From: Candidatus Limnocylindria bacterium
GTDB lineage: Bacteria; Chloroflexota; Limnocylindria; P2-11E
Reading direction: 5' to 3'
Length of the DNA: 63,000 nucleotides
NCBI GenBank assembly: GCA_038200085.1
Contig: JBBPYG010000022.1
Span: forward strand, 1 to 63,000
The notes below the pieces were generated by a model. That model ran no database searches. It saw only the letters and a program-made list of their open reading frames with translations, and was not told the origin of the DNA. Position 1 is the stretch's first letter; the number at the start of each line of letters is the position of its first letter. Shown one piece after another: positions 31,360-55,100 of the stretch. A program made the translations under genes and the position numbers.

Positions 31360-31436
31360 TGGCGGTCCCGACCGGATTCGAACCGGCGATCTCGTCCTTG
31401 ACAGGGACGTATGCTAGGCCGCTGCACCACGGGACC
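31360..31436 (-). tRNA. tRNA-Asp (anticodon GUC), CCA encoded
   Basis: GGTCCCGTGGTGCAGCGGCCTAGCATACGTCCCTGTCAAGGACGAGATCGCCGGTTCGAATCCGGTCGGGACCGCCA folds as a cloverleaf: 7-bp acceptor, anticodon loop CTGTCAA, GTTCGAATC T-loop. Confidence 0.95.
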
Positions 31437-46571: not shown

Positions 46572-47051
46572 GTGAGCGCCCGTGTCGCCATCGTCATGGG
46601 GTCCGCATCGGACCGCGAGGTCATGCAGGTCGCCGCGCAGACGCTCGACGGACTGGGCGTCGAGACCGATGTGCGCGTGCTCTCCGCCCATCGCACGCCC
46701 GACGCGCTGCACGCGTGGGCGCGGGGACTCGAGGGGAAAGGCGTCAAGGTCGTCATAGCCGGGGCCGGCGGCGCCGCGCACCTCGCCGGCGCGGTCGCTG
46801 CCGTCACGACGCTCCCCGTGATCGGCGTTCCCCTGGCATCCCCGAACGCGATCGCGGGCGGCCTCGACGCGCTGCTCTCCACCGTGCAGATGCCGCGCGG
46901 CGTGCCCGTCGCCACGGTCGCGGTCGGGGAGTCAGGCGCCGCGAACGCGGGCATCCTCGCGGCGCAGATCCTCGCGACGGGCGATCCGGCGCTCGCCGAA
47001 CGCGTGTCGGCCCTGCGCGAATCGATGGCGGAGAAGGTCCTGCGCGGATGA
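46572..47051 (+). CDS. purE: N5-carboxyaminoimidazole ribonucleotide mutase (class I PurE)
   Basis: [10 protein letters not shown]...VLSAHRTP...[12 protein letters not shown]...PVIGVP. Confidence 0.95.
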
Positions 47052-48454
47052 CGCTGCACGACCGCTTCGACGCCGTCTCGCCTCTCGACTCGCGCTTCTA
47101 TGGCGGCGACGCGGAGCTGTACGCGGCGCTGCATCCGTACCTGTCCGAGGAAGGGGCGGTGGGCGCGATGGCGCGCGCGGAGAGCGCTCTGGCCCGCGCG
47201 CTCGCGCAGGAGGGCGTCGCGCCGCGCGAGGCCGCGGAGGCGATCGCGTCCGCCGCGCATGGGATCGGCGCCGCCGAGGTGTACGCGGAGGAGGCGCGCG
47301 TGGGCCACAACGTGCGCGCGCTGGTGAACCTCATCCGCGAGCGCGTGCCGGAGGACGCGCGGCGCTTCGTGCACCTGGGCGCGACCTCGATGGACATCGT
47401 CGACACCGCCAACGCCTGGCGGTACCGCGAGTGCGTCACCCGCGTGGTGCTGCCGCGGCTCGGCGTGCTCGCGGCGCGCCTCATCGCGCTCGCCGAGAAC
47501 GAGGCGGACACCGCTCAGGCCGGCCGCACCCACGGCCAGCACGCCGTGCCGATCACGTTCGGGTTCGCCGCCGCCGAGTACGTGAGCCGCCTCGGCGGAC
47601 GGATCGAGCGCGTGCGTGACGCCGCGGCGCGGCTGCGCGGGAAGCTGTCGGGCGCGGTCGGCGCGCACAACGCGGCCTCGCTGCTGGTGCCCGATCCGCG
47701 CGCGCTGGAGGTCCGCTACCTCGCCTCGCTTGGGCTCGAGCCCGGGCCGCACTCGACGCAGATCGTCGAGCCCGAGGCCTGGGCCGACCTCGCGCACGCG
47801 CACGTCACCTGCCTCGGCGTGATGGCGAACTTCGCCGACGACATGCGCCACCTGCAGCGGACGGAGATAGCGGAGATCGCGGAGGGGTTCGGCGCGCGCC
47901 AGGTCGGCTCATCGACGATGCCCCAGAAGCGCAACCCCGTCGCGTTCGAGAACGTGAAGTCGATCTGGAAGGCGTTCATGCCGCGCGTCGTCACGAACTA
48001 CATGGACCAGATCAGCGAGCACCAGCGCGACCTCACCAACTCGGCCTCGCAGCGATTCACGGGGGAGATCCTCGCGGCCACGGCGTACGCGGCGACGCGG
48101 CTGGCCGCGTCACTCGACGGCATCCGCGTCGACCGCGAGCGGATGGCCGCGAACCTTGCCCTTTCCCGGGGCGGCATCGCGGCCGAGGCGCTATACGTCC
48201 TGCTCGCGAAGCACGGGCACGCGGACGCGCACGAGGCCGTGCGGAGCCTGACGCTGGAGGCCGACCGCGCGGCCATGCCGCTCCTCGTCGTGGCCGCCCG
48301 CGACGGCGATGTCGGCGCGCTGGTGGCGAAGATGGCGCCCGGCGAGCGCGCGATGCTCGAGCGTCCCGAGGAGTACCGCGGCCTCGCGCCCGAGATCGCG
48401 CGCGAGGTCGCCGCGACCTGGCGCGCGCGACTCGCGGAGTTCCTGCCCGAATGA
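47048..48454 (+). CDS. purB: Adenylosuccinate lyase
   Basis: [46 protein letters not shown] overlap with purE. Confidence 0.95.
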
Positions 48455-48512
48455 CCACGAACACCCGCGGGTCCGGCGGCCCGGACCTGACGGCGGCGGA
48501 TGGGGAAGTGAC

Positions 48513-49400
48513 ATGACCGCGACGCTCGTACGTTCCCAGATCCCGGGCGCGGCGCTGTTCCGCGAAGGCAAGGTCCGCGAGGTGTACGAGGCCGGCGAAG
48601 AGGCGCTCGTGATCGTCGCGAGCGACAGGCTCTCCGCCTTTGACGTCGTCCTGCCGACGCCGATCCCCGACAAGGGGCGCGTCCTCACGCAGCTCTCGAA
48701 CTTCTGGTTCGGACGGACCGCGGGCGTCGTCCCGAATCACCTCGTGGAGACCGACCTCGCGCGTTTCCCCGAGCCTTTCGCCTCCCGGCCGGAACTCGAG
48801 GGGCGCGCGGTGCTGGTGCGGCGCTGCGACCGGGTCGACATCGAATGCGTGGCCCGCGGCTACCTCGCCGGATCCGGCTGGGCCGAGTACCGGCAGAGCG
48901 GCACGCTCGCCGGCGAGCCGCTGCCGCGCGGCCTCGAGGAGTCGGCGCAGCTCCGCGAGCCCGTCTTTACTCCCGCGACGAAGGCCGTCACCGGGCACGA
49001 CGAGAACATCTCCCGCGCGCAGCTGGCCGCGCTGGTGGGTCGCGGGCTTGCCGAACGGCTCGAGGAGGTCACGCTGGCTCTTTACCGCCACGCGCACGCG
49101 TACGCGCTCGGGCGCGGGCTCGTGCTGGCGGACACGAAGTTCGAGTTCGGCTTCGCGGGCGACGAGCTGCTGCTCATCGACGAGACGCTGACACCCGACT
49201 CCTCGCGGTACTGGGACTCGCGCACGTACCGCCCGGGCGCTTCCCCGCCGTCGTACGACAAGCAGTTCGTGCGCGATTTCCTCGTGCGGAGCGGCTGGGA
49301 CCGCGAGCCGCCGGGACCCGCCCTTCCGGAGGACGTGGTGGCCGGCACGAGCGAGCGCTATCGCGAGTGTTACCGGCTGCTCACCGGGTCCGCGCTCTGA
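48513..49400 (+). CDS. purC: SAICAR synthase
   Basis: GKVREVY...ASDRLSAFD...LADTKFEFG...LIDE.LTPDSSR.W. Confidence 0.95.
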   Translation: MTATLVRSQIPGAALFREGKVREVYEAGEEALVIVASDRLSAFDVVLPTPIPDKGRVLTQLSNFWFGRTAGVVPNHLVETDLARFPEPFASRPELEGRAVLVRRCDRVDIECVARGYLAGSGWAEYRQSGTLAGEPLPRGLEESAQLREPVFTPATKAVTGHDENISRAQLAALVGRGLAERLEEVTLALYRHAHAYALGRGLVLADTKFEFGFAGDELLLIDETLTPDSSRYWDSRTYRPGASPPSYDKQFVRDFLVRSGWDREPPGPALPEDVVAGTSERYRECYRLLTGSAL

Positions 49401-49497
49401 ACGCGCCGCGCGCGGACGGGATGGCGGGCGACACCGCGCGGTCCACGCGTAGCGCCCGCAAGGGCCAACGCCGGCAGGCGGCCGCGAGGCAGCTAGC

Positions 49498-49761
49498 GTG
49501 ACGGCCTTCGTGGCGACGATCCACGTCCGGCCGAAGGACGAGGTCCGCGATCCGCAAGGTGAGGCTGTGGCGGGCGCGCTGCGCGCGCTCGGGGTGCCGG
49601 TCGACGACGTGCGCACCGGCAAGGAGATCGTCGTGCGCTTCGATGCGGCCGACGAGACGGGCGCGCTCGAGGCGGCGCGCCGGATGGGGGACCAGCTCCT
49701 CGCCAACCCCGTGATCGAGCGCTTCGAGGTGCAGCTGGGCCGCGACGGGATGCGGTCGTGA
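49498..49761 (+). CDS. purS: FGAM synthase subunit PurS
   Basis: 87 aa. VRPKDEVRDPQGEAV..AL..LG, and LANPVIE. Confidence 0.9.
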   Translation: MTAFVATIHVRPKDEVRDPQGEAVAGALRALGVPVDDVRTGKEIVVRFDAADETGALEAARRMGDQLLANPVIERFEVQLGRDGMRS

Positions 49762-50468
49762 GGGCGGCCATCCTTCGCTACCCGGGGACGTGGAGCGAGC
49801 GTGACTTCGCGCACGCGCTCGGGGTCCTGGGGGTCCGATCCGAGATCGTGTGGCACGCCGACGCCGACCTCGCGGGCTTCGACGCGGCGATCGTGCCGGG
49901 CGGCTTCTCGTACGGCGACTACCTGCGGGCCGGCGCGATCGCGCGCATCTCGCCCGGCACCGCCGAGCTCCGGCGCTTCGCCGACGCCGGCGGGCTCGTG
50001 CTCGGCTCGTGCAATGGGTTCCAGATCCTGTGCGAGGCGGGGCTCCTGCCGGGAGCGCTCGTGCGCAATGCCGGTCTCGAGTTCCGGTGCGACTGGGTCG
50101 GGCTCCGCGTCGAGAGCGAGGCGACGCCGTTCACCCGCGGCCTTGGCGGCGAGATCCTCCGCATGCCGATCGCGCACGGCGAGGGTTGCTGGGTGGCCGA
50201 CGAGGAGACCATGGCGGCGCTCGAGCGCGCGGGGCAGGTCGTGTTCCGCTACGTCGACGCGCGGGGCGCCGCGACGCCCGAGGCGAACCCCAACGGGTCG
50301 CTCCGCAACATCGCAGGCGTGCGCAACGGCGCCGGGAACGTGGTCGGCCTCATGCCGCATCCCGAGCGCTGCTCGGAGGATCTCCTCGGCGGCTCCGACG
50401 GCGCGCGCGTGCTGGCCTGCCTAGCGAGCGTGCGTGGGGCTACTGCGCCGGTGCCCGTCGGTATATAA
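49758..50468 (+). CDS. purQ: FGAM synthase glutaminase subunit PurQ
   Basis: PGGFSYGDYLR.GAIA, GSCNGFQIL, NPNGS...IAG, MPHPER. Confidence 0.95.
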   Translation: MRAAILRYPGTWSERDFAHALGVLGVRSEIVWHADADLAGFDAAIVPGGFSYGDYLRAGAIARISPGTAELRRFADAGGLVLGSCNGFQILCEAGLLPGALVRNAGLEFRCDWVGLRVESEATPFTRGLGGEILRMPIAHGEGCWVADEETMAALERAGQVVFRYVDARGAATPEANPNGSLRNIAGVRNGAGNVVGLMPHPERCSEDLLGGSDGARVLACLASVRGATAPVPVGI

Positions 50469-50474
50469 AAGGGT

Positions 50475-51326
50475 ATGGACCTGTTCGAGAGGCAGGCGCA
50501 GCTGCAGAATCTCTTCCACGCGAACCCCGTCGACGCCGCCTACGCCCAGGGGACGCCGTCGGGGCGGCGGATCGCGGGCGCGTACGCCGACCTGGATGTC
50601 GCCCTCCTGCTGCTCGACAAGATCAAGGTGAACGAGTTCTTCGACTACCAGGTCTATTTCGTCAGCGAGCTCTCCAAAGCGCTCGATACCGAGGGTCTCG
50701 ACGTCGTGATCCTGAACCAGTCCTCGCTGCTCCAACGCGCCCAGGTCATCAAGAGCTGGTCGCTCCTGTACCAGCGCGACCGCAAGCGACGGGTGGAGTT
50801 CGAGGCGCGGGCGGTGCTCGAGTACCTCGAGTTCCAGAAGTACGACGAGGCGCAGTCGCGCGCGCTCGCCGAGCGGATGCGGACGGAGCGCTTCGCGATC
50901 GACGGCGACTACGTTCGCCGCCGCCTCGCCCGGCTCCGCGAATACGTCGTCCTGCTCACCGACCTGCGCGCGATCGACCGTGCGAAGTTCCGATCCGATC
51001 CCAAGTTGTACGGCCTCGCGCAGTGGTACCTCCAGCAGGCCGTCGAGCTGCTCTTCGGGACCGGGGCGTACCTCGTGATGGCGCTCGCGCTGCCGAAGCC
51101 CGAGGCCTACCACGACATCCTCGACTCGATCGCCCAGCGCGGGATCATCGAGAAGAGCCTCGGCTACCGCCTCGAGCACTTCGCGAACATGCGCAACCTT
51201 CTCGCGTACGACCGCGAGCAGACGGATATCGACGAGGTCTACGGGCACATCCAGTCGCGCGTGGCGGACATCGCGACCTTCGCCGAGCAGGTCGAGACGT
51301 TCCTGGGAGCGTCCGCCGACTCATGA
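50475..51326 (+). CDS. Fused minimal nucleotidyltransferase (MntA-like) and HEPN/DUF86 (HepT-like) protein
   Basis: N-terminal half: GT-x11-DLDVALLL plus LDVVILN (NTase G[ST]...DxD...D pattern). C-terminal half: YHDILDSIAQRGIIEKSLGYRLEHFANMRNLLAYDREQTDIDEVY resembles the DUF86 block ...gfRNilvHeY..id.e.vy, but with His replaced by Tyr. Starts 6 nt after the purQ stop and overlaps the purL start (ATGA). Confidence 0.7.
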   Translation: MDLFERQAQLQNLFHANPVDAAYAQGTPSGRRIAGAYADLDVALLLLDKIKVNEFFDYQVYFVSELSKALDTEGLDVVILNQSSLLQRAQVIKSWSLLYQRDRKRRVEFEARAVLEYLEFQKYDEAQSRALAERMRTERFAIDGDYVRRRLARLREYVVLLTDLRAIDRAKFRSDPKLYGLAQWYLQQAVELLFGTGAYLVMALALPKPEAYHDILDSIAQRGIIEKSLGYRLEHFANMRNLLAYDREQTDIDEVYGHIQSRVADIATFAEQVETFLGASADS

Positions 51327-53530
51327 GCCCGTTCCCGGTCGTGGCCGGGACGGAGGCGGCGCAGCCTAACCAGGACATCCCGCGCGAAGTGGGCCTCACC
51401 GACTTCGAGGCCGGCCGCGTCCGCGAATTGCTGGGCCGCGAACCGAACGCGCTCGAGTGGGCGATGTTCGGCGCGATGTGGAGCGAGCACTGCGCGTACA
51501 AGCACAGCAGGCGGCTCCTGCGGACCCTGCCCACCAGCGGCGCGCGCGTCGCCGTCGGTCCCGGCGAGAACGCCGGCGCCGTCGACGTCGGCGGCGGCCT
51601 GTTATGCGTGTTCAAGGCGGAGAGCCACAACCACCCTTCGGCGGTCGAGCCCTTCCAGGGGGCGGCGACCGGTGTGGGCGGGATCCTGCGCGACATCTTC
51701 GCGATGGGCGCGCGCCCCGTCGCGCTCCTGAACGCGCTCGCGTTCGGCGATCCAGCCGAGGGATCGACGCGGCGCGCGGTGCGCGGCGTCGTCGGCGGGA
51801 TCTCCTTCTACGGCAACTGCGTCGGCATCCCCGACGTCGGCGGACACGTGTCCTTCGCACCCGCGTACGGCGGCAACCCGCTGGTGAACGCGATGTGCGT
51901 CGGCCTCGTGCCCGCCGACGGGCTCGCCTCCGCGGCGACCGCGAGGCCCGGGAGCGCGGTGTACCTGGTCGGCAGCGACACCGGCCGCGACGGCATCGCC
52001 GGCGCATCGCTCCTCGCTTCCTTCGAGCTGGGCTCCGGCGACGACGCGAAGCGGCCGTCGGTCCAGGTCGGCGATCCGTTCGTCGAGAAGCTGCTTCTCG
52101 AGGCGTGCCTCGAGCTCATCGGCGCCGGCGCGGTCGAGGCTATCCAGGACCTCGGCGCGGCGGGACTCTGCTGTGCCACGAGCGAGCTTGCCGCGCGCAG
52201 CGGCACCGGGATGCGCATCGACCTCGCCGCGGTGCCGCGGCGCGCGCGCGGCATGGCGCCGTTCGAGGTGATGCTCTCGGAGTCGCAGGAGCGGATGCTC
52301 GTCGTCGCGAGGCCCGGCCGGGAGGACGAGATCGAGCGCGTCTTCGCGCGCTGGGAGCTGCACGCGGCGCGCATCGGGGAGATCACCGCGGACCAGACGC
52401 TCGACGTCCGCGACGGGGGGGCCGCCGTCGCCTCGCTGCCGCCCGCAAAGCTCGCCGACGGCGCGCCCGAGTACGACATCGACGCGCTCGCCGACTCGTA
52501 CCGCGCGGAGCGCCGCGATGCGGCCGACATGTTCCGGGCGGGGGTGCGCGCGGACGCCGACATGAACGAGGAGGTGCTCCGCGTGCTCGCGTCTCCCGAG
52601 GTCGCCTCCCGCCGAGTCCTGTATCGCACGTACGACCAGATGGTCGGCACGGACACCGTGGTGGGACCCGGCGCGGACGCGGCGATCCTGCGCATCAAGG
52701 GGCGCGCGGACGGGATCGCCGTCGCGATCGACGCGCAGCCGCGCGCGGCATCGCGCGACCCCTACGTCGGAGCGGTCGCCGCGGTCGCCGAGGCCACCCG
52801 GAACCTCGTGTGCGTCGGCGCCGAGCCGCTGGCGATCACCGACTGCCTGAACCTGGGCAACCCCGAGCGAGCCCGCGGCGCGTGGGAGCTGCGCGAGACG
52901 GTGGCCGGGATCGGCGCGGCCTGCCGCGCGCTCGGCGTCCCAGTGGTCTCCGGGAACGTGAGCCTGTACAACGCGACCGGCGGCATCGACATCCCACCGA
53001 CGGCGGTGATCGGTGCGGTGGGACACGTTCCGGACGTCGCCGGGTACCTTGGCGCCGCCGCCGTCCGCGCGGGTGACGAGGTGCTGCTCGCCGGCAGCGT
53101 CCCGGTCGACGACTGGCTCGACGAGATGGACCTCGGGCTCGAGGTCCGCCTCCAGCGGTTCGTGCTCGCCGCGCACCGCGCCGGGCTGGCCCGCGCCGCG
53201 CATGACCGCGCCGAGGGTGGCCTCGCCGCCGCACTCGCCGAGATGTGCATCCGTGCGGGGATCGGTGCCGCCGCGACGCTTCCCGCGGTGCGCGGCGCGA
53301 GCACGGCGACGGCGCTCTTCGCCGAGTCGCCCTCGGGCATCGTGCTCGCCGCCGCACCGGCCGACACCGAGCTCCTGCGCGGCCTCGCGGCGGAGCACGA
53401 CGTCCCGCTCCGGACGCTCGGCGCGTTCGGCGGCGACGCGTTCGCGCTTGGCCCCGTGACGCTGTCGCTGCGCGCGATCGCCGACGCCCACGCCGAGGGG
53501 CTCGAGCGCGCTCTCGGACGCATCGGGTGA
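51323..53530 (+). CDS. purL: FGAM synthase II (PurL)
   Basis: EWAMFGAMWSEHCAYKHS, ENAGAVD, KAESHNHPSAVEPFQGAATGVGGILRD, ESQERML. Confidence 0.95.
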   Translation: MSPFPVVAGTEAAQPNQDIPREVGLTDFEAGRVRELLGREPNALEWAMFGAMWSEHCAYKHSRRLLRTLPTSGARVAVGPGENAGAVDVGGGLLCVFKAESHNHPSAVEPFQGAATGVGGILRDIFAMGARPVALLNALAFGDPAEGSTRRAVRGVVGGISFYGNCVGIPDVGGHVSFAPAYGGNPLVNAMCVGLVPADGLASAATARPGSAVYLVGSDTGRDGIAGASLLASFELGSGDDAKRPSVQVGDPFVEKLLLEACLELIGAGAVEAIQDLGAAGLCCATSELAARSGTGMRIDLAAVPRRARGMAPFEVMLSESQERMLVVARPGREDEIERVFARWELHAARIGEITADQTLDVRDGGAAVASLPPAKLADGAPEYDIDALADSYRAERRDAADMFRAGVRADADMNEEVLRVLASPEVASRRVLYRTYDQMVGTDTVVGPGADAAILRIKGRADGIAVAIDAQPRAASRDPYVGAVAAVAEATRNLVCVGAEPLAITDCLNLGNPERARGAWELRETVAGIGAACRALGVPVVSGNVSLYNATGGIDIPPTAVIGAVGHVPDVAGYLGAAAVRAGDEVLLAGSVPVDDWLDEMDLGLEVRLQRFVLAAHRAGLARAAHDRAEGGLAAALAEMCIRAGIGAAATLPAVRGASTATALFAESPSGIVLAAAPADTELLRGLAAEHDVPLRTLGAFGGDAFALGPVTLSLRAIADAHAEGLERALGRIG

Positions 53531-53708
53531 GGCGCACCTCGCCTCGCACGAGCGACTCGGATGGCTGGACCCGTGGCCCATCTCACGCTCTTGCGGCGTT
53601 CGGCCTGGCCCGCGTCGCCTCCCCGACGCGACACTTCATCGTGGGCACGGAGGTCCCGACGCGAGGGGCCTCGAGAAGTCCGCGGTCGAACGAAGGCGTT
53701 AGCTAGCC

Positions 53709-55100
53709 GTGTGCGGGGTATGCGGAATCTGGTCGCCGGCCGCGACTGATCCGACCGACGCGGCGCGCATGGAGTTCTTCTCGCTCTATGCCCTCCAGCA
53801 CCGCGGCCAGGAGTCAGCCGGCATCGCCGCGACGGACGGCCGCGACATCCGCGTCGTGCGGCGCATGGGCCTCGTCGGCCAGGTGTTCGCCGAGCCCGAC
53901 CTCGTCGCGCTCGGTGGCCACGCGGCCATCGGGCACACCCGCTACTCGACGACCGGCTCGTCGCGCATCGACAACGCGCAGCCGATGGTGGTGAGGGGGG
54001 AGGGCCTCGGCGATCTCGCGATCGCGCACAACGGCAACTGCATCAACGCGAGGGAGCTCCGCGATCCGCTGCGCGCCGAGGGCGTCGAGTTCAGCACCTC
54101 GTCCGACACGGAGGTCGTCGCGCAGGCGATCGCGAACGCGGCCGGCGTGACCTGGGACGAGCGCCTCGCGCGCGCGCTGCCAAGACTCGCGGGAGCGTGG
54201 TCGCTCGTGCTGCTGACGCCCCGAGCGCTGTATGCGATCCGCGACCCGCTCGGCGTCAGGCCTCTGTGCCTCGGCCGCAAGGGCGACTCGTGGCTCGTCG
54301 CCAGCGAGACGTGCGCGCTCGACACCGTGGGCGCGACGTTCGTCCGCGACGTCGCGCCGGGCGAGGTCATCCGGATCGACGACCGAGGCCCCGAGAGCAT
54401 CCTCGACCTCGCTGCGCCCGCGCGTGGGCTGTGCCTGTTCGAGCACGTCTACCTCGCGTCGGCGTCGAGCACGCTCGGCGGCGTCTCGCTCTACGCGACG
54501 CGCGAGCGGATGGGCGAGGCGCTCGCGCTCGAGCATCCCGCCGACGCGGACGTCGTGATACCCGTCCCCGACAGCGCGATCCCCGCCGCCGTCGGATACG
54601 CGCGCACGTCCGGCATCCCGTTCCGCGAGGGGCTCATCAAGAACCGCTACATCGGCCGCACGTTCATCCAGCCGTCGCAGGAGCTGCGCGCGCACAACGT
54701 CGCGCTCAAGTACAACGCGCTGCGCGACGTCCTCGATGGCAAGCGCGTCGTCGTGGTCGACGACTCGATCGTGCGCGGATCGACCAGCGGGCCGATCGTG
54801 CAGCTGCTCCGCCGATCGGGAGCGCGCGAGGTCCACATGCGGGTGTGCTCGCCGCCGATCCGCCACGCGTGCTATTTCGGCGTCGACATGGCGCGGCGGG
54901 ACGAGCTGATCGCCTCGCACCTCGACGTCGCCGCGATCCGCGACCACGTCGGCGCCGACACGCTGGGCTACCTCTCGCTGGAGGGCCTCATCGGCGCCAC
55001 GGGTGGGAAGCCCGACGAGTTCTGCGGCGCGTGCTTCACCGGCGATTACCCGGTCCCCGTGCAGCTCGAGCTCGCGAAGGAGGTGCTCGAGCCCTCGTGA
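53709..55100 (+). CDS. purF: Amidophosphoribosyltransferase
   Basis: MCGVCGI (N-terminal Cys nucleophile), LQHRGQESAGIA, GHTRYSTTG, VVVVDDSIVRGST, and C-terminal cysteines (CYFGVD, CGACF). Confidence 0.95.
   Translation: MCGVCGIWSPAATDPTDAARMEFFSLYALQHRGQESAGIAATDGRDIRVVRRMGLVGQVFAEPDLVALGGHAAIGHTRYSTTGSSRIDNAQPMVVRGEGLGDLAIAHNGNCINARELRDPLRAEGVEFSTSSDTEVVAQAIANAAGVTWDERLARALPRLAGAWSLVLLTPRALYAIRDPLGVRPLCLGRKGDSWLVASETCALDTVGATFVRDVAPGEVIRIDDRGPESILDLAAPARGLCLFEHVYLASASSTLGGVSLYATRERMGEALALEHPADADVVIPVPDSAIPAAVGYARTSGIPFREGLIKNRYIGRTFIQPSQELRAHNVALKYNALRDVLDGKRVVVVDDSIVRGSTSGPIVQLLRRSGAREVHMRVCSPPIRHACYFGVDMARRDELIASHLDVAAIRDHVGADTLGYLSLEGLIGATGGKPDEFCGACFTGDYPVPVQLELAKEVLEPS

What the first reader, a model, noticed from the sequence alone, without database searches (positions are those of the whole stretch)
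50475..51326. Fused MntA-HepT-like (nucleotidyltransferase-HEPN) gene wedged between purQ and purL
purS, purQ and purL are normally contiguous. Here a 283-aa ORF starts 6 nt after the purQ stop, and its stop overlaps the purL ATG (ATGA at 51323-51326), so it is fully embedded in the operon. Its N-terminal half has the minimal NTase pattern (G-T-x11-D-L-D, then LDVV). Its C-terminal half resembles DUF86/HepT HEPN domains. The sizes match an MntA plus HepT pair (type VII toxin-antitoxin) whose intervening stop has been lost. The HEPN R-x4-H-x-Y RNase motif reads R-N-L-L-A-Y-D-R, with His replaced by Tyr, which suggests an inactivated or repurposed toxin. By eye the gene has more A/T-ending codons than its neighbours (for example aag atc aag gtg aac gag ttc ttc gac tac cag gtc tat ttc). 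This could be a domesticated TA module acting on purine or nucleotide metabolism, or an addiction element stabilised by its essential context.
Basis: partly seen in the sequence, partly recalled or inferred. Interest (0 to 1): 0.65.

Follow-up and report, generated by a model that had tools for sequence, protein, structure and literature searches.

The report
Domesticated toxin-antitoxin relic in purine operon
A gene descended from a fused MntA-HepT toxin-antitoxin module has lost its toxin chemistry and become a fixed, strongly conserved resident next to purQ in the purine-synthesis operon of a whole class of soil and freshwater bacteria (Limnocylindria), which suggests a new but still unproven housekeeping role.

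Summary
The 283-aa ORF (50475-51326) is real. It starts 6 nt after purQ, and its stop overlaps the purL ATG. Its N-half is homologous to MntA nucleotidyltransferases and its C-half to HepT HEPN RNases, by HMMs, PDB sequence search and a pLDDT 85 model. It is not a working type VII toxin-antitoxin module. The RNase His is Tyr/Phe, the AMPylation-acceptor Tyr is Arg, and the NTase motif is G-T-x11-D-x-D, with independent catalytic-residue losses in about a third of relatives. The gene is not recent. Its GC3 equals that of its neighbours, which refutes the codon-usage claim. It sits directly after purQ in 66 of 67 Limnocylindria species loci and before purL in 64 of 73. It evolves as slowly as the Pur enzymes, or more slowly (dN/dS 0.024 against 0.08-0.18). 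A sister family in Ktedonobacteria keeps the NTase triad but also lacks the acceptor Tyr. In one subgroup it again follows a lone purQ. Fused MNT-HEPN modules (FhepTA, 2026) and the idea of domesticated MNT-HEPN fusions (2013) are already known. This purQ-linked, doubly degenerate family has apparently not been described. The most likely role is a non-toxic ligand-binding or regulatory accessory of PurQ/FGAM synthase, but that role is inferred, not shown.

The parts
49498..49761 (+). purS (FGAM synthase subunit PurS), 87 aa; its stop overlaps the purQ start
   Evidence: Pfam PurS E=1.3e-23; NCBIfam TIGR00302 57.6 bits against a cut-off of 39
49758..50468 (+). purQ (FGAM synthase glutaminase subunit), 236 aa
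   Evidence: NCBIfam PurQ equivalog 284 bits against a cut-off of 212; GATase_5
50455..50474 (+). AT-rich purQ 3' end plus the 6-nt spacer (GGTATATAAAAGGGT) just before the X start codon; probably a translation (re)initiation region
   Evidence: The sequence was read directly. Related AT-rich, rare-codon junctions (TATATAGATAGGT) recur in relatives although the PurQ tail residues differ. No sigma-70 consensus was found.
50475..50894 (+). X N-terminal half (residues 1-140): MntA-type minimal nucleotidyltransferase fold with a degenerate motif
   Evidence: Polbeta E=4e-5 and MntA_antitoxin 44.8 bits. A family profile hits the solved MntA chain 5yep_A with E=8.5e-14. Foldseek TM is about 0.75 to MntA chains. 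The AF2 model shows alternating beta strands and alpha helices.
50550..50597 (+). NTase motif G26-T27-x11-D39-L40-D41 (canonical form G-S-x10-D-x-D)
   Evidence: Read directly. Variation across 186 full-length relatives: T27 is T/S/M/N/L; D39 becomes E in 16; D41 becomes S, G, Q or E in 23.
50700..50702 (+). D76, the third metal-binding Asp (equivalent to MntA D71)
   Evidence: Alignment; D becomes E in 12 of 186
50895..51323 (+). X C-terminal half (residues 141-283): HepT-type HEPN four-helix domain without RNase residues
   Evidence: PF01934 E=1.2e-15; PDB HepT chains E about 1e-26; Foldseek match to 7ae6_B with TM 0.92 and rmsd 1.6 A
51192..51215 (+). Former RNase motif R240-N-L-L-A-Y245-D246-R247 (canonical form R-x4-H-x-Y)
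   Evidence: Read directly. R240, N241, D246 and R247 are invariant; Y245 becomes F in 8. Mapping to Shewanella HepT: H102 to Y245, D103 to D246, Y104 to R247.
51323..51326 (+). ATGA overlap of the X stop and the purL start (translational coupling)
   Evidence: Read directly. The same 4-nt overlap occurs in 52 of 74 related loci.
51323..53530 (+). purL (small PurL, FGAM synthase subunit), 735 aa
   Evidence: NCBIfam PurL equivalog 846 bits against a cut-off of 648

Best explanation
X is a vertically inherited, domesticated descendant of a fused MntA-HepT (MNT-HEPN, type VII) toxin-antitoxin module. It no longer works as one. The HEPN half cannot cleave RNA by the canonical mechanism because it has no His. 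It cannot be neutralised by AMPylation because it has no acceptor Tyr. The NTase half has a weakened motif that several lineages have lost independently. The whole protein is nevertheless held under housekeeping-level purifying selection. It is expressed as part of the pur operon, translationally coupled to purQ upstream and usually to purL downstream. The most likely working model, which is inferred, is that X acts as a non-toxic ligand- or nucleotide-binding accessory or regulatory protein of PurQ/FGAM synthase, using the remodelled but invariant former HEPN cleft and the NTase pocket as binding surfaces rather than as a toxin-antidote pair. What is shown: homology, motif loss, fixation, synteny and selection. 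What is inferred: non-toxicity, ligand binding and a functional link to PurQ. My confidence that X is domesticated and not an active TA is about 0.85. My confidence that it acts on or with PurQ/FGAM synthase is about 0.35.
For: Homology of both halves is supported by HMMs, the PDB and the fold. The canonical His and the acceptor Tyr are absent in all 186 full-length relatives, whereas all 27 canonical fused representatives keep G-S, D-x-D and the Tyr of R-N-x3-H-x-Y, and 26 of 27 keep its His. In Shewanella, GS to AT or D39E/D41E abolish AMP transfer, and Y104 is the acceptor (PMC7641770). X has G-T. Only 126 of 186 relatives keep G-[ST], D, D, D, and the losses occurred in separate clades. 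The D41S clade (at least 12 species) shows no relaxation of the N-domain (identity 0.88 within the clade) and keeps purQ-X-purL. The gene is fixed: purQ lies immediately upstream in 66 of 67 loci, purL lies within 150 nt in 64 of 73, and 3 of 3 PurQ-seeded loci with a Limnocylindria-type PurQ carry X, against 0 of 77 distant ones. Selection is strong: dN/dS is 0.024 against 0.08-0.18 for the pur genes in the closest pair, and median identity is 74.5%, against PurQ 74.0 and PurL 67.7. GC3 is fully ameliorated. The purQ-X adjacency recurs in a Ktedonobacterales subgroup where purQ (a bona fide PurQ, 324 bits) is separated from purS and purL. Gene pairs conserved across deep divergence often encode interacting proteins (established knowledge, Dandekar et al. 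1998). Former cleft residues are invariant (R240, N241, D246, R247, Q183, W184, Y199, H213, E234). The precedent that MNT-fused HEPN domains lose their RNase residues and become substrate-binding or regulatory domains comes from PMC3710099. A HEPN-type domain is also fused to PurF in M. hungatei (PMC3261824).
Against: There is no direct evidence for ligand binding or for any interaction with PurQ, PurS or PurL. In Ktedonobacteraceae and in the P0131 lineage, the orthologue is stand-alone or next to unrelated genes, so its function need not concern purines. About two thirds of Limnocylindria members, and essentially all Ktedonobacterial members, keep a complete NTase triad, so catalysis may still matter in most lineages. 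Unrelated genes interrupt the X-purL junction in 8 loci, so coupling to purL is dispensable. Model coordinates could not be inspected, so whether the invariant residues cluster is unverified.
Confidence: 0.55

Rival explanations
1. X is still an active nucleotidyltransferase of the domesticated MNT-HEPN type, working like GlnE/GlnD or the aminoglycoside NTases. The HEPN half is its substrate-binding domain. It nucleotidylylates another target, for example PurQ or PurL or a small molecule, to regulate the glutamine-dependent FGAM step.
For: G26, D39, D41 and D76 are retained in the window protein and in 126 of 186 relatives. The triad is invariant in 118-119 of 119 Ktedonobacterial orthologues. 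D246, equivalent to HepT D103, which hydrogen-bonds the adenosine of ATP in the MntA-HepT complex, is invariant. The architecture and the domestication scenario are described in PMC3710099. X is adjacent to a glutamine amidotransferase gene in two classes.
Against: Natural D41S/G/Q, D39E, T27M/N/L, G26A and E110A substitutions occur in separate clades without any relaxation elsewhere in the protein. In MntA, S28T combined with G27A, or D39E/D41E, abolish transfer. The ATP-phosphate contact HepT R59 maps to Met202. The MntA model score is below the cut-off. There is no global fold match to two-domain ANT enzymes (TM 0.23-0.26).
Confidence: 0.25
2. X has a protein-level function unrelated to purine synthesis. 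Its position after purQ is a frozen accident of an ancient TA insertion, kept in place by operon compaction and translational coupling.
For: The pur cluster is a recurrent landing site for TA genes: RHH+PIN, RHH+DUF5615, a Phd/YefM-like gene, and HigB in an outgroup. Stand-alone orthologues in Ktedonobacteraceae keep their own conserved, non-purine neighbourhood. The ATGA overlap would make deletion costly for purL expression.
Against: The purQ-X pair persists in a Ktedonobacterales subgroup even though purS and purL are elsewhere. The purQ-X junction is essentially never broken (66 of 67), while the X-purL junction is broken in 8 of 73. Coupling alone would preserve an ORF but not 75% amino-acid identity.
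Confidence: 0.25
3. X is a functional single-chain type VII toxin-antitoxin, addiction or defence module (FhepTA-like) that stabilises itself by sitting inside an essential operon.
For: It has the same two-domain order and size as FhepTA (276 aa). Both halves are homologous to MntA and HepT. TA modules do insert into this operon in relatives.
Against: The R-x4-H His and the acceptor Tyr are absent in every member. There is no hit to defence-system models. X is not on a mobile element. It is fixed and syntenic across a class, with housekeeping-level dN/dS and host-like GC3.
Confidence: 0.03

Closest known systems
FhepTA, the fused MNT-HEPN toxin-antitoxin of Shewanella (SO_1440; Yao et al. 2026, PMC13000451)
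   Same: One polypeptide of about 280 aa, with an N-terminal MNT and a C-terminal HEPN joined by a short linker. Both halves are homologous to MntA and HepT.
   Different: FhepTA is carried on prophages or mobile elements. It keeps the NTase motif, R-phi-x3-H and the adjacent Tyr. It auto-oligoAMPylates, and its isolated HEPN domain is toxic. X is chromosomal, fixed in a class, lacks both the His and the Tyr, has G-T-x11-D-x-D, and is embedded in the pur operon.
Two-gene type VII HepT/MntA (SO_3166/SO_3165; PDB 5YEP, 7BXO; Aphanizomenon HEPN/MNT, 7AE2-7AE9)
   Same: These are the best sequence and fold matches for each half (E about 1e-26 and 1e-13; TM 0.92 and 0.75). D246 corresponds to HepT D103.
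   Different: They are separate genes. RX4HXY and GSX10DXD are defining motifs and are intact. The HepT R59 ATP contact is Met in X. They form TA hetero-oligomers, and their distribution is patchy.
Domesticated NTase+HEPN-like enzymes: GlnE/GlnD and the kanamycin/aminoglycoside nucleotidyltransferases (Anantharaman et al. 2013, PMC3710099)
   Same: An NTase domain is followed by a HEPN-derived helical domain that has lost its RNase residues. The proposed origin is domestication of an MNT-HEPN TA. GlnE/GlnD regulate a glutamine-handling enzyme.
   Different: Those enzymes keep a strictly conserved catalytic triad and have known substrates. X shows repeated natural loss of triad residues and has no global structural match to AadA or AAD(9) (TM about 0.25). 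Its substrate, if it has one, is unknown.
Ktedonobacteria orthologue family (P0127/P0270, P0313, P0329 and others)
   Same: About 42-48% identical over the full length, with the same N-terminal helix and the LDVVILNQASLL block. The acceptor Tyr is lost (Pro in 116 of 119). One subgroup lies directly after purQ.
   Different: The NTase triad is invariant. His at the R-x4-H position is kept in 83 of 119. Both NCBIfam models score above the cut-off. Most members are not linked to pur genes.
HEPN-type C-terminal domain on PurF of Methanospirillum hungatei (Brown et al. 2011, PMC3261824)
   Same: A HEPN-type domain physically associated with a glutamine amidotransferase of de novo purine synthesis, suggested by the authors to bind nucleotides.
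   Different: It is a fusion to PurF, not a separate gene next to PurQ. It has no NTase half, occurs in a single archaeal species, and is equally uncharacterised.

Membership tests
[quoted passage not shown] | A HEPN domain homologous to HepT (PF01934 / NF047751) | tested here: met
   PF01934 57.7 bits (cut-off 23.5); NF047751 60.3 bits (cut-off 60); PDB HepT E about 1e-26; TM 0.92
[quoted passage not shown] | An MNT domain homologous to MntA (NF047752 / PF18765) | tested here: inconclusive
   The hits are significant but below the curated cut-offs (44.8 bits against 60; 24.1 against 26.9). A family profile hits the solved MntA chain at E=8.5e-14, and TM is about 0.75.
[quoted passage not shown] | The RNase motif R-x4-H in HEPN | tested here: not met
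   X reads R240-N-L-L-A-Y245. Position 245 is Y in 178 and F in 8 of 186, and is never H.
[quoted passage not shown] | An acceptor Tyr two residues after the His (RX4HXY), the site of oligoAMPylation | tested here: not met
   Position 247 is R in 185 of 186. It is Y in 27 of 27 canonical fused representatives. Y104 is required in Shewanella.
[quoted passage not shown] | The G-S-x10-D-x-D adenylyltransferase motif | tested here: not met
   The window protein has G-T-x11-D-L-D. Only about 22% of relatives have G-S, and 32% lack at least one of G, [ST], D, D, D.
[quoted passage not shown] | Carriage on mobile elements, patchy distribution, and fast evolution typical of TA modules | tested here: not met
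   The position is the same in 66 of 67 species loci, dN/dS is at or below that of the pur genes, and GC3 equals the host's.
[quoted passage not shown] | Toxicity of the HEPN part, neutralised by AMPylation | not testable with these tools
   Requires expression and mass-spectrometry assays.
Domesticated NTase + inactive-HEPN regulatory or modifying enzymes (GlnE/GlnD, KNTase type) | An NTase domain fused N-terminally to a HEPN-derived helical domain that lacks RNase residues | tested here: met
   Domain order and loss of the His; the concept comes from PMC3710099.
Domesticated NTase + inactive-HEPN regulatory or modifying enzymes (GlnE/GlnD, KNTase type) | A conserved, intact NTase catalytic triad | tested here: inconclusive
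   The triad is intact in the window protein and in 126 of 186 relatives, but it has been lost independently in several clades with no relaxation elsewhere in the protein.
Domesticated NTase + inactive-HEPN regulatory or modifying enzymes (GlnE/GlnD, KNTase type) | Global two-domain structural similarity to solved ANT/AadA-type enzymes | tested here: not met
   Foldseek against 6xz0 and 5luh gives TM 0.23-0.26 and rmsd about 17 A.
Domesticated NTase + inactive-HEPN regulatory or modifying enzymes (GlnE/GlnD, KNTase type) | Demonstrated nucleotidyl transfer to a defined substrate | not testable with these tools
   Requires biochemistry.
FGAM synthase (PurS-PurQ-PurL) accessory component | Conserved operon adjacency and coupling with the complex genes | tested here: met
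   The purQ-X gap is 10 nt or less in most loci. The ATGA overlap with purL occurs in 52 of 74. The purQ-X pair also occurs in Ktedonobacterales.
FGAM synthase (PurS-PurQ-PurL) accessory component | Physical or kinetic interaction with PurQ, PurS or PurL | not testable with these tools
   No multimer prediction or assay was available.

The most novel reading that the evidence does not exclude
X is a previously unrecognised fourth component of the three-protein FGAM synthase system in Chloroflexota. On this reading it is a toxin-antitoxin-derived pseudoenzyme, or a weak NTase, that binds a purine nucleotide in its remodelled MNT-HEPN cleft and gates PurQ glutaminase activity or PurS-PurQ-PurL assembly. 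That would be a toxin-antitoxin module converted into a metabolic feedback sensor.
Probability: 0.25. Interest if true: 0.75.

Novelty: new variant of a known kind. Interest (0 to 1): 0.5.

Why it matters
Toxin-antitoxin modules are usually viewed as selfish or defensive accessory genes. This looks like a clean natural case in which one was captured, disarmed at both catalytic centres, and then kept for a very long time (class level, and probably across classes) under the same constraint as core purine-biosynthesis enzymes, next to the same partner gene, purQ. If the PurQ link is functional, it would add a new regulatory or assembly factor to a textbook pathway. It would also give a tractable example of a pseudoenzyme arising from a TA system. 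On a practical level, current annotation pipelines label these proteins as 'type VII toxin-antitoxin system HepT family RNase toxin'. That label is probably misleading for this family and would inflate TA counts in Chloroflexota genomes.

Tried and rejected
(1) The first AlphaFold run used 23 near-identical sequences and gave an unusable N-domain (pLDDT below 50). I replaced it with a model built from 53 diverse sequences. (2) I suspected a conserved GC hairpin plus AT tract upstream of X, as an attenuator or terminator. Folding 70-nt junctions from about 70 loci showed no consistent structure, so I dropped the idea. (3) I looked for an internal sigma-70 promoter or intrinsic terminator around X. 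The consensus scan of 48200-53800 found none. A leaderless-type -10 box (TATATA at -13 to -8) remains an untested visual impression. (4) I checked for an anti-phage defence system: there are no PADLOC hits. (5) I checked for a riboswitch or other RNA regulator of the operon. Rfam finds only a tRNA, far away in the window. (6) I tested the idea of a recent horizontal insertion. GC3 and synteny reject it. (7) I tested for an aminoglycoside-NTase-like two-domain fold and found only very weak matches. (8) I asked whether a conserved C-terminal Tyr of PurQ could be an AMPylation target. The tail residues are not conserved across junction types. (9) The PurQ-seeded metagenome scan returned mostly distant PurQs, so it served as an outgroup control and not as a dense Limnocylindria sample. 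(10) I considered that E110A and D41S might mark a single 'dead' clade. They occur in different clades.
Full report
OBSERVATION. purQ ends with TAA at 50466-50468, six bases before the ATG of X. The TGA of X overlaps the ATG of purL (ATGA, 51323-51326). The flanking genes are confirmed as purC, purS, purQ, purL, purF and purM, all above curated NCBIfam cut-offs. A purB-like gene upstream scores below its cut-off. One sub-claim fails. X does not have more A/T-ending codons than its neighbours. Its GC3 is 0.937, against 0.91-0.94 for the adjacent pur genes. Its lower total GC (0.661) comes entirely from second codon positions (0.359), which reflects amino-acid composition.

WHAT IT IS. The C-half (residues about 141-283) is a HepT-type HEPN domain: Pfam PF01934 E=1.2e-15, NCBIfam HepT_toxin 60.3 bits. 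The N-half is an MntA-type minimal nucleotidyltransferase, but it scores below the curated cut-offs (PF18765 24.1 bits, MntA_antitoxin 44.8 bits). A profile built from X and its relatives hits the solved Shewanella and Aphanizomenon HepT chains at E about 1e-26, and the solved MntA chains at E=8.5e-14. An AlphaFold model built on a diverse alignment (pLDDT 85.5) superposes on HEPN toxins at TM 0.92 and 1.6 A, and on MntA at TM about 0.75. There is no global similarity to two-domain aminoglycoside nucleotidyltransferases (TM about 0.25). No anti-phage defence model matches.

THE FUSION ITSELF IS NOT NEW. An exhaustive search of 1.8 billion cluster representatives found many fused proteins of 270-305 aa. 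The 27 I examined all keep F-G-S, S-D-V-D and the Tyr of R-N-x3-H-x-Y, and 26 of 27 keep its His. Such fused modules were described in 2026 as FhepTA. They are prophage-borne, they auto-oligoAMPylate the Tyr next to the RNase motif, and their isolated HEPN domain is toxic (PMC13000451).

X IS NOT A WORKING MEMBER OF THAT FAMILY. I compared 186 full-length relatives of X. The His position is Tyr in 178 and Phe in 8. The acceptor-Tyr position is Arg in 185. Mapping onto Shewanella HepT gives H102 to Y245, D103 to D246 (retained), Y104 to R247, and the ATP-phosphate contact R59 to Met202 (residue roles from PMC7641770). On the NTase side, the canonical G-S-x10-D-x-D has become G-T-x11-D-x-D. In Shewanella MntA, GS to AT or D39E/D41E each abolish AMP transfer. 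In the X family, D41 is S, G, Q or E in 23 sequences. D39 is E in 16-17. T27 is M, N or L in about a dozen. G26 is A or C in 4. E110 is A in 19. Only 126 of 186 keep G-[ST], D, D, D. These changes sit in different clades, so they arose independently. The D41S clade (at least 12 species) shows no relaxation of the rest of the N-domain and keeps the purQ-X-purL arrangement. By contrast, many non-catalytic blocks are invariant: EFFDYQVYFVSELSK, LDVVILNQxSLLQRA, DPKLYGLAQWYLQQAVELLFGTGAYLV and RNLLAYDREQTDID.

IT IS AN OLD, FIXED, STRONGLY CONSTRAINED GENE. The 120 best of 579 homologues are all 282-285 aa and 74-98% identical. Where they are named, most come from Candidatus Limnocylindria, a class of Chloroflexota. 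In one-genome-per-species GTDB contigs, 79 loci carry the gene. purQ lies immediately upstream in 66 of 67 loci with enough flank. purL lies within 150 nt downstream in 64 of 73. The purQ-X gap is 10 nt or less in most loci, and the ATGA overlap with purL occurs in 52 of 74. The one upstream exception, L068, has a Phd/YefM-like antitoxin gene there instead. Eight loci carry unrelated genes between X and purL, for example a 1010-aa AAA_16+GerE regulator on the opposite strand. As an independent sample, I seeded a metagenome scan with PurQ rather than X. All 3 loci with a Limnocylindria-type PurQ (72% identity or more) had X directly after purQ. None of the 77 loci with more distant PurQs had any X-like gene, and 27 of those had purL directly after purQ. 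Median amino-acid identity to the window is 74.5% for X, against 74.0 (PurQ), 67.7 (PurL), 68.8 (PurS), 71.7 (PurC) and 79.7 (PurF). Against the closest relative, dN/dS is 0.024 for X and 0.08-0.18 for the pur genes. Across about 2500 pairs, X (0.245) is indistinguishable from PurQ, PurL and PurF. These values rule out a pseudogene, a neutral hitchhiker and a typical fast-evolving TA module.

A SISTER FAMILY IN ANOTHER CLASS. The nearest full-length relatives outside the family (P0127, P0131; 36-48% identical) belong to Ktedonobacteria. They keep an invariant NTase triad and pass both the MntA and HepT NCBIfam cut-offs. The His is kept in 83 of 119. The acceptor Tyr is replaced by Pro in 116 of 119. 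So loss of the AMPylation acceptor is the shared derived character of both families. Their genomic contexts differ. In one Ktedonobacterales subgroup, X again lies 26-28 nt after a bona fide purQ (324 bits against a cut-off of 212; 60% identical to the window's PurQ), and that purQ stands alone, away from purS and purL. In Ktedonobacteraceae the gene is stand-alone within its own conserved neighbourhood. In the P0131 lineage it follows an unrelated gene.

ORIGIN. Relatives carry RHH+PIN (VapBC-type) and RHH+DUF5615 pairs between purC, purS and purQ. An unrelated outgroup carries a HigB toxin gene between purQ and purL. Intergenic sites in the pur cluster are therefore recurrent landing sites for TA modules. 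That makes an ancient MntA-HepT insertion after purQ a natural origin for X.

MECHANISM (INFERRED). The data show a former toxin-antidote pair whose own chemistry has been dismantled: there is no RNase His and no acceptor Tyr, the ATP contact is lost, and the NTase motif is eroding. Yet the protein, including the residues lining the former HEPN cleft, is tightly conserved, and it is co-expressed with purQ and purL. No consensus promoter or terminator lies inside 48200-53800. Anantharaman et al. (2013) argued that HEPN domains fused to MNTs typically lose their RNase residues and serve as substrate-binding or regulatory domains. They proposed that such domestication produced GlnE/GlnD-type regulators and the aminoglycoside nucleotidyltransferases (PMC3710099). 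Brown et al. (2011) noted a HEPN-type domain, possibly nucleotide-binding, fused to PurF in one methanogen (PMC3261824). My best reading is that X is a non-toxic ligand-binding or regulatory accessory of PurQ/FGAM synthase. My confidence is about 0.85 that it is domesticated and not an active TA, and about 0.35 that it acts on or with PurQ. The main rivals are as follows. (a) X is still an active NTase with a new substrate, in the manner of GlnE. The intact triad in most members, and in all Ktedonobacterial ones, supports this. The repeated natural losses argue against it. (b) X has a function unrelated to purines, and its position is a frozen accident. The stand-alone Ktedonobacterial orthologues support this. 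The persistence of purQ-X where purL and purS have moved away argues against it. (c) X is a working FhepTA-like TA. The motifs, distribution and selection reject this.

NOVELTY. Fused MNT-HEPN modules and the domestication concept are both known. I found no paper linking such a gene to purQ or purL, or describing this family, within the limits of the searchable library. I classify X as a new variant of a known kind. It is a class-wide, purQ-linked, doubly degenerate MNT-HEPN protein that public pipelines currently annotate as a HepT RNase toxin.

LIMITS. I could not inspect model coordinates or predict complexes, and I could not census complete genomes. All relatives are MAG or metagenome sequences. 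dS is near saturation for most pairs, so the pairwise medians are only comparative.

Noticed in passing
L005:3582-4285; L010:3382-4019; L029:2601-3220; L004:3474-4243: Related Limnocylindria genomes carry RHH+PIN (VapBC-type) or RHH+DUF5615 toxin-antitoxin pairs between purC, purS and purQ. The pur cluster of this class is a recurrent landing pad for TA modules.
   Followed up: yes
L136:1306-1825; L158:4812-5228: In unrelated, distant PurQ loci, a HigB toxin gene (with a small downstream ORF that had no Pfam match) or a PDDEXK_3 gene sits between purQ and purL. The purQ-purL junction therefore attracts small selfish genes in other phyla too.
   Followed up: partly
L068:2234-2587: This is the only Limnocylindria locus without purQ directly upstream of X. 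By sequence it has a Phd/YefM-like antitoxin ORF there instead (not checked with an HMM), and there is no purQ within 2.8 kb.
   Followed up: partly
L024:5849-8884 and L070:5849-8878 (minus strand); L020:5891-7117; L030:3336-4559: Unrelated genes are inserted between X and purL in 8 of 73 loci. One is a 1010-aa AAA_16+GerE (LuxR-type) regulator on the opposite strand. Another is a 407-aa protein that looks like a flavoprotein from its N-terminal sequence only. X-purL coupling is therefore dispensable, while purQ-X adjacency is not broken.
   Followed up: partly
window 50455-50474 (and -20 to -1 of X in L002-L079): The 3' end of purQ and the spacer are AT-rich and use rare codons in a 71% GC genome (GGTATATAAAAGGGT here; TATATAGATAGGT in many relatives). 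The encoded PurQ tail is not conserved. This points to a nucleotide-level signal, probably a translation (re)initiation region or possibly a leaderless-type -10 box. The consensus scan found no promoter, and no conserved hairpin was found.
   Followed up: partly
L030, L051, L066, L008, L049, L069 (record titles): Contigs whose X gene is 72-80% identical, flanked by Limnocylindria-like pur genes, sit in MAGs labelled Bathyarchaeia, Saccharimonadales, Acidiferrales, Gaiellaceae and Udaeobacter. They are most likely mis-binned Limnocylindria contigs.
   Followed up: no
window 47051-48451 (+): The purB-like adenylosuccinate-lyase-family gene upstream of purC scores 262.7 bits, below the TIGR00928 cut-off of 326.2. 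It is either a divergent PurB or a related lyase.
   Followed up: no
window 31363-31436 (-): This tRNA gene is the only Rfam match in the 63-kb window. No purine, ZTP or other riboswitch is associated with the pur cluster.
   Followed up: no
source names (for example P0032 and P0028): Public annotation calls members of this family 'type VII toxin-antitoxin system HepT family RNase toxin' or 'HepT-like ribonuclease domain-containing protein', although the RNase His and the acceptor Tyr are absent. This is probably a systematic over-annotation of TA toxins in Chloroflexota.
   Followed up: partly
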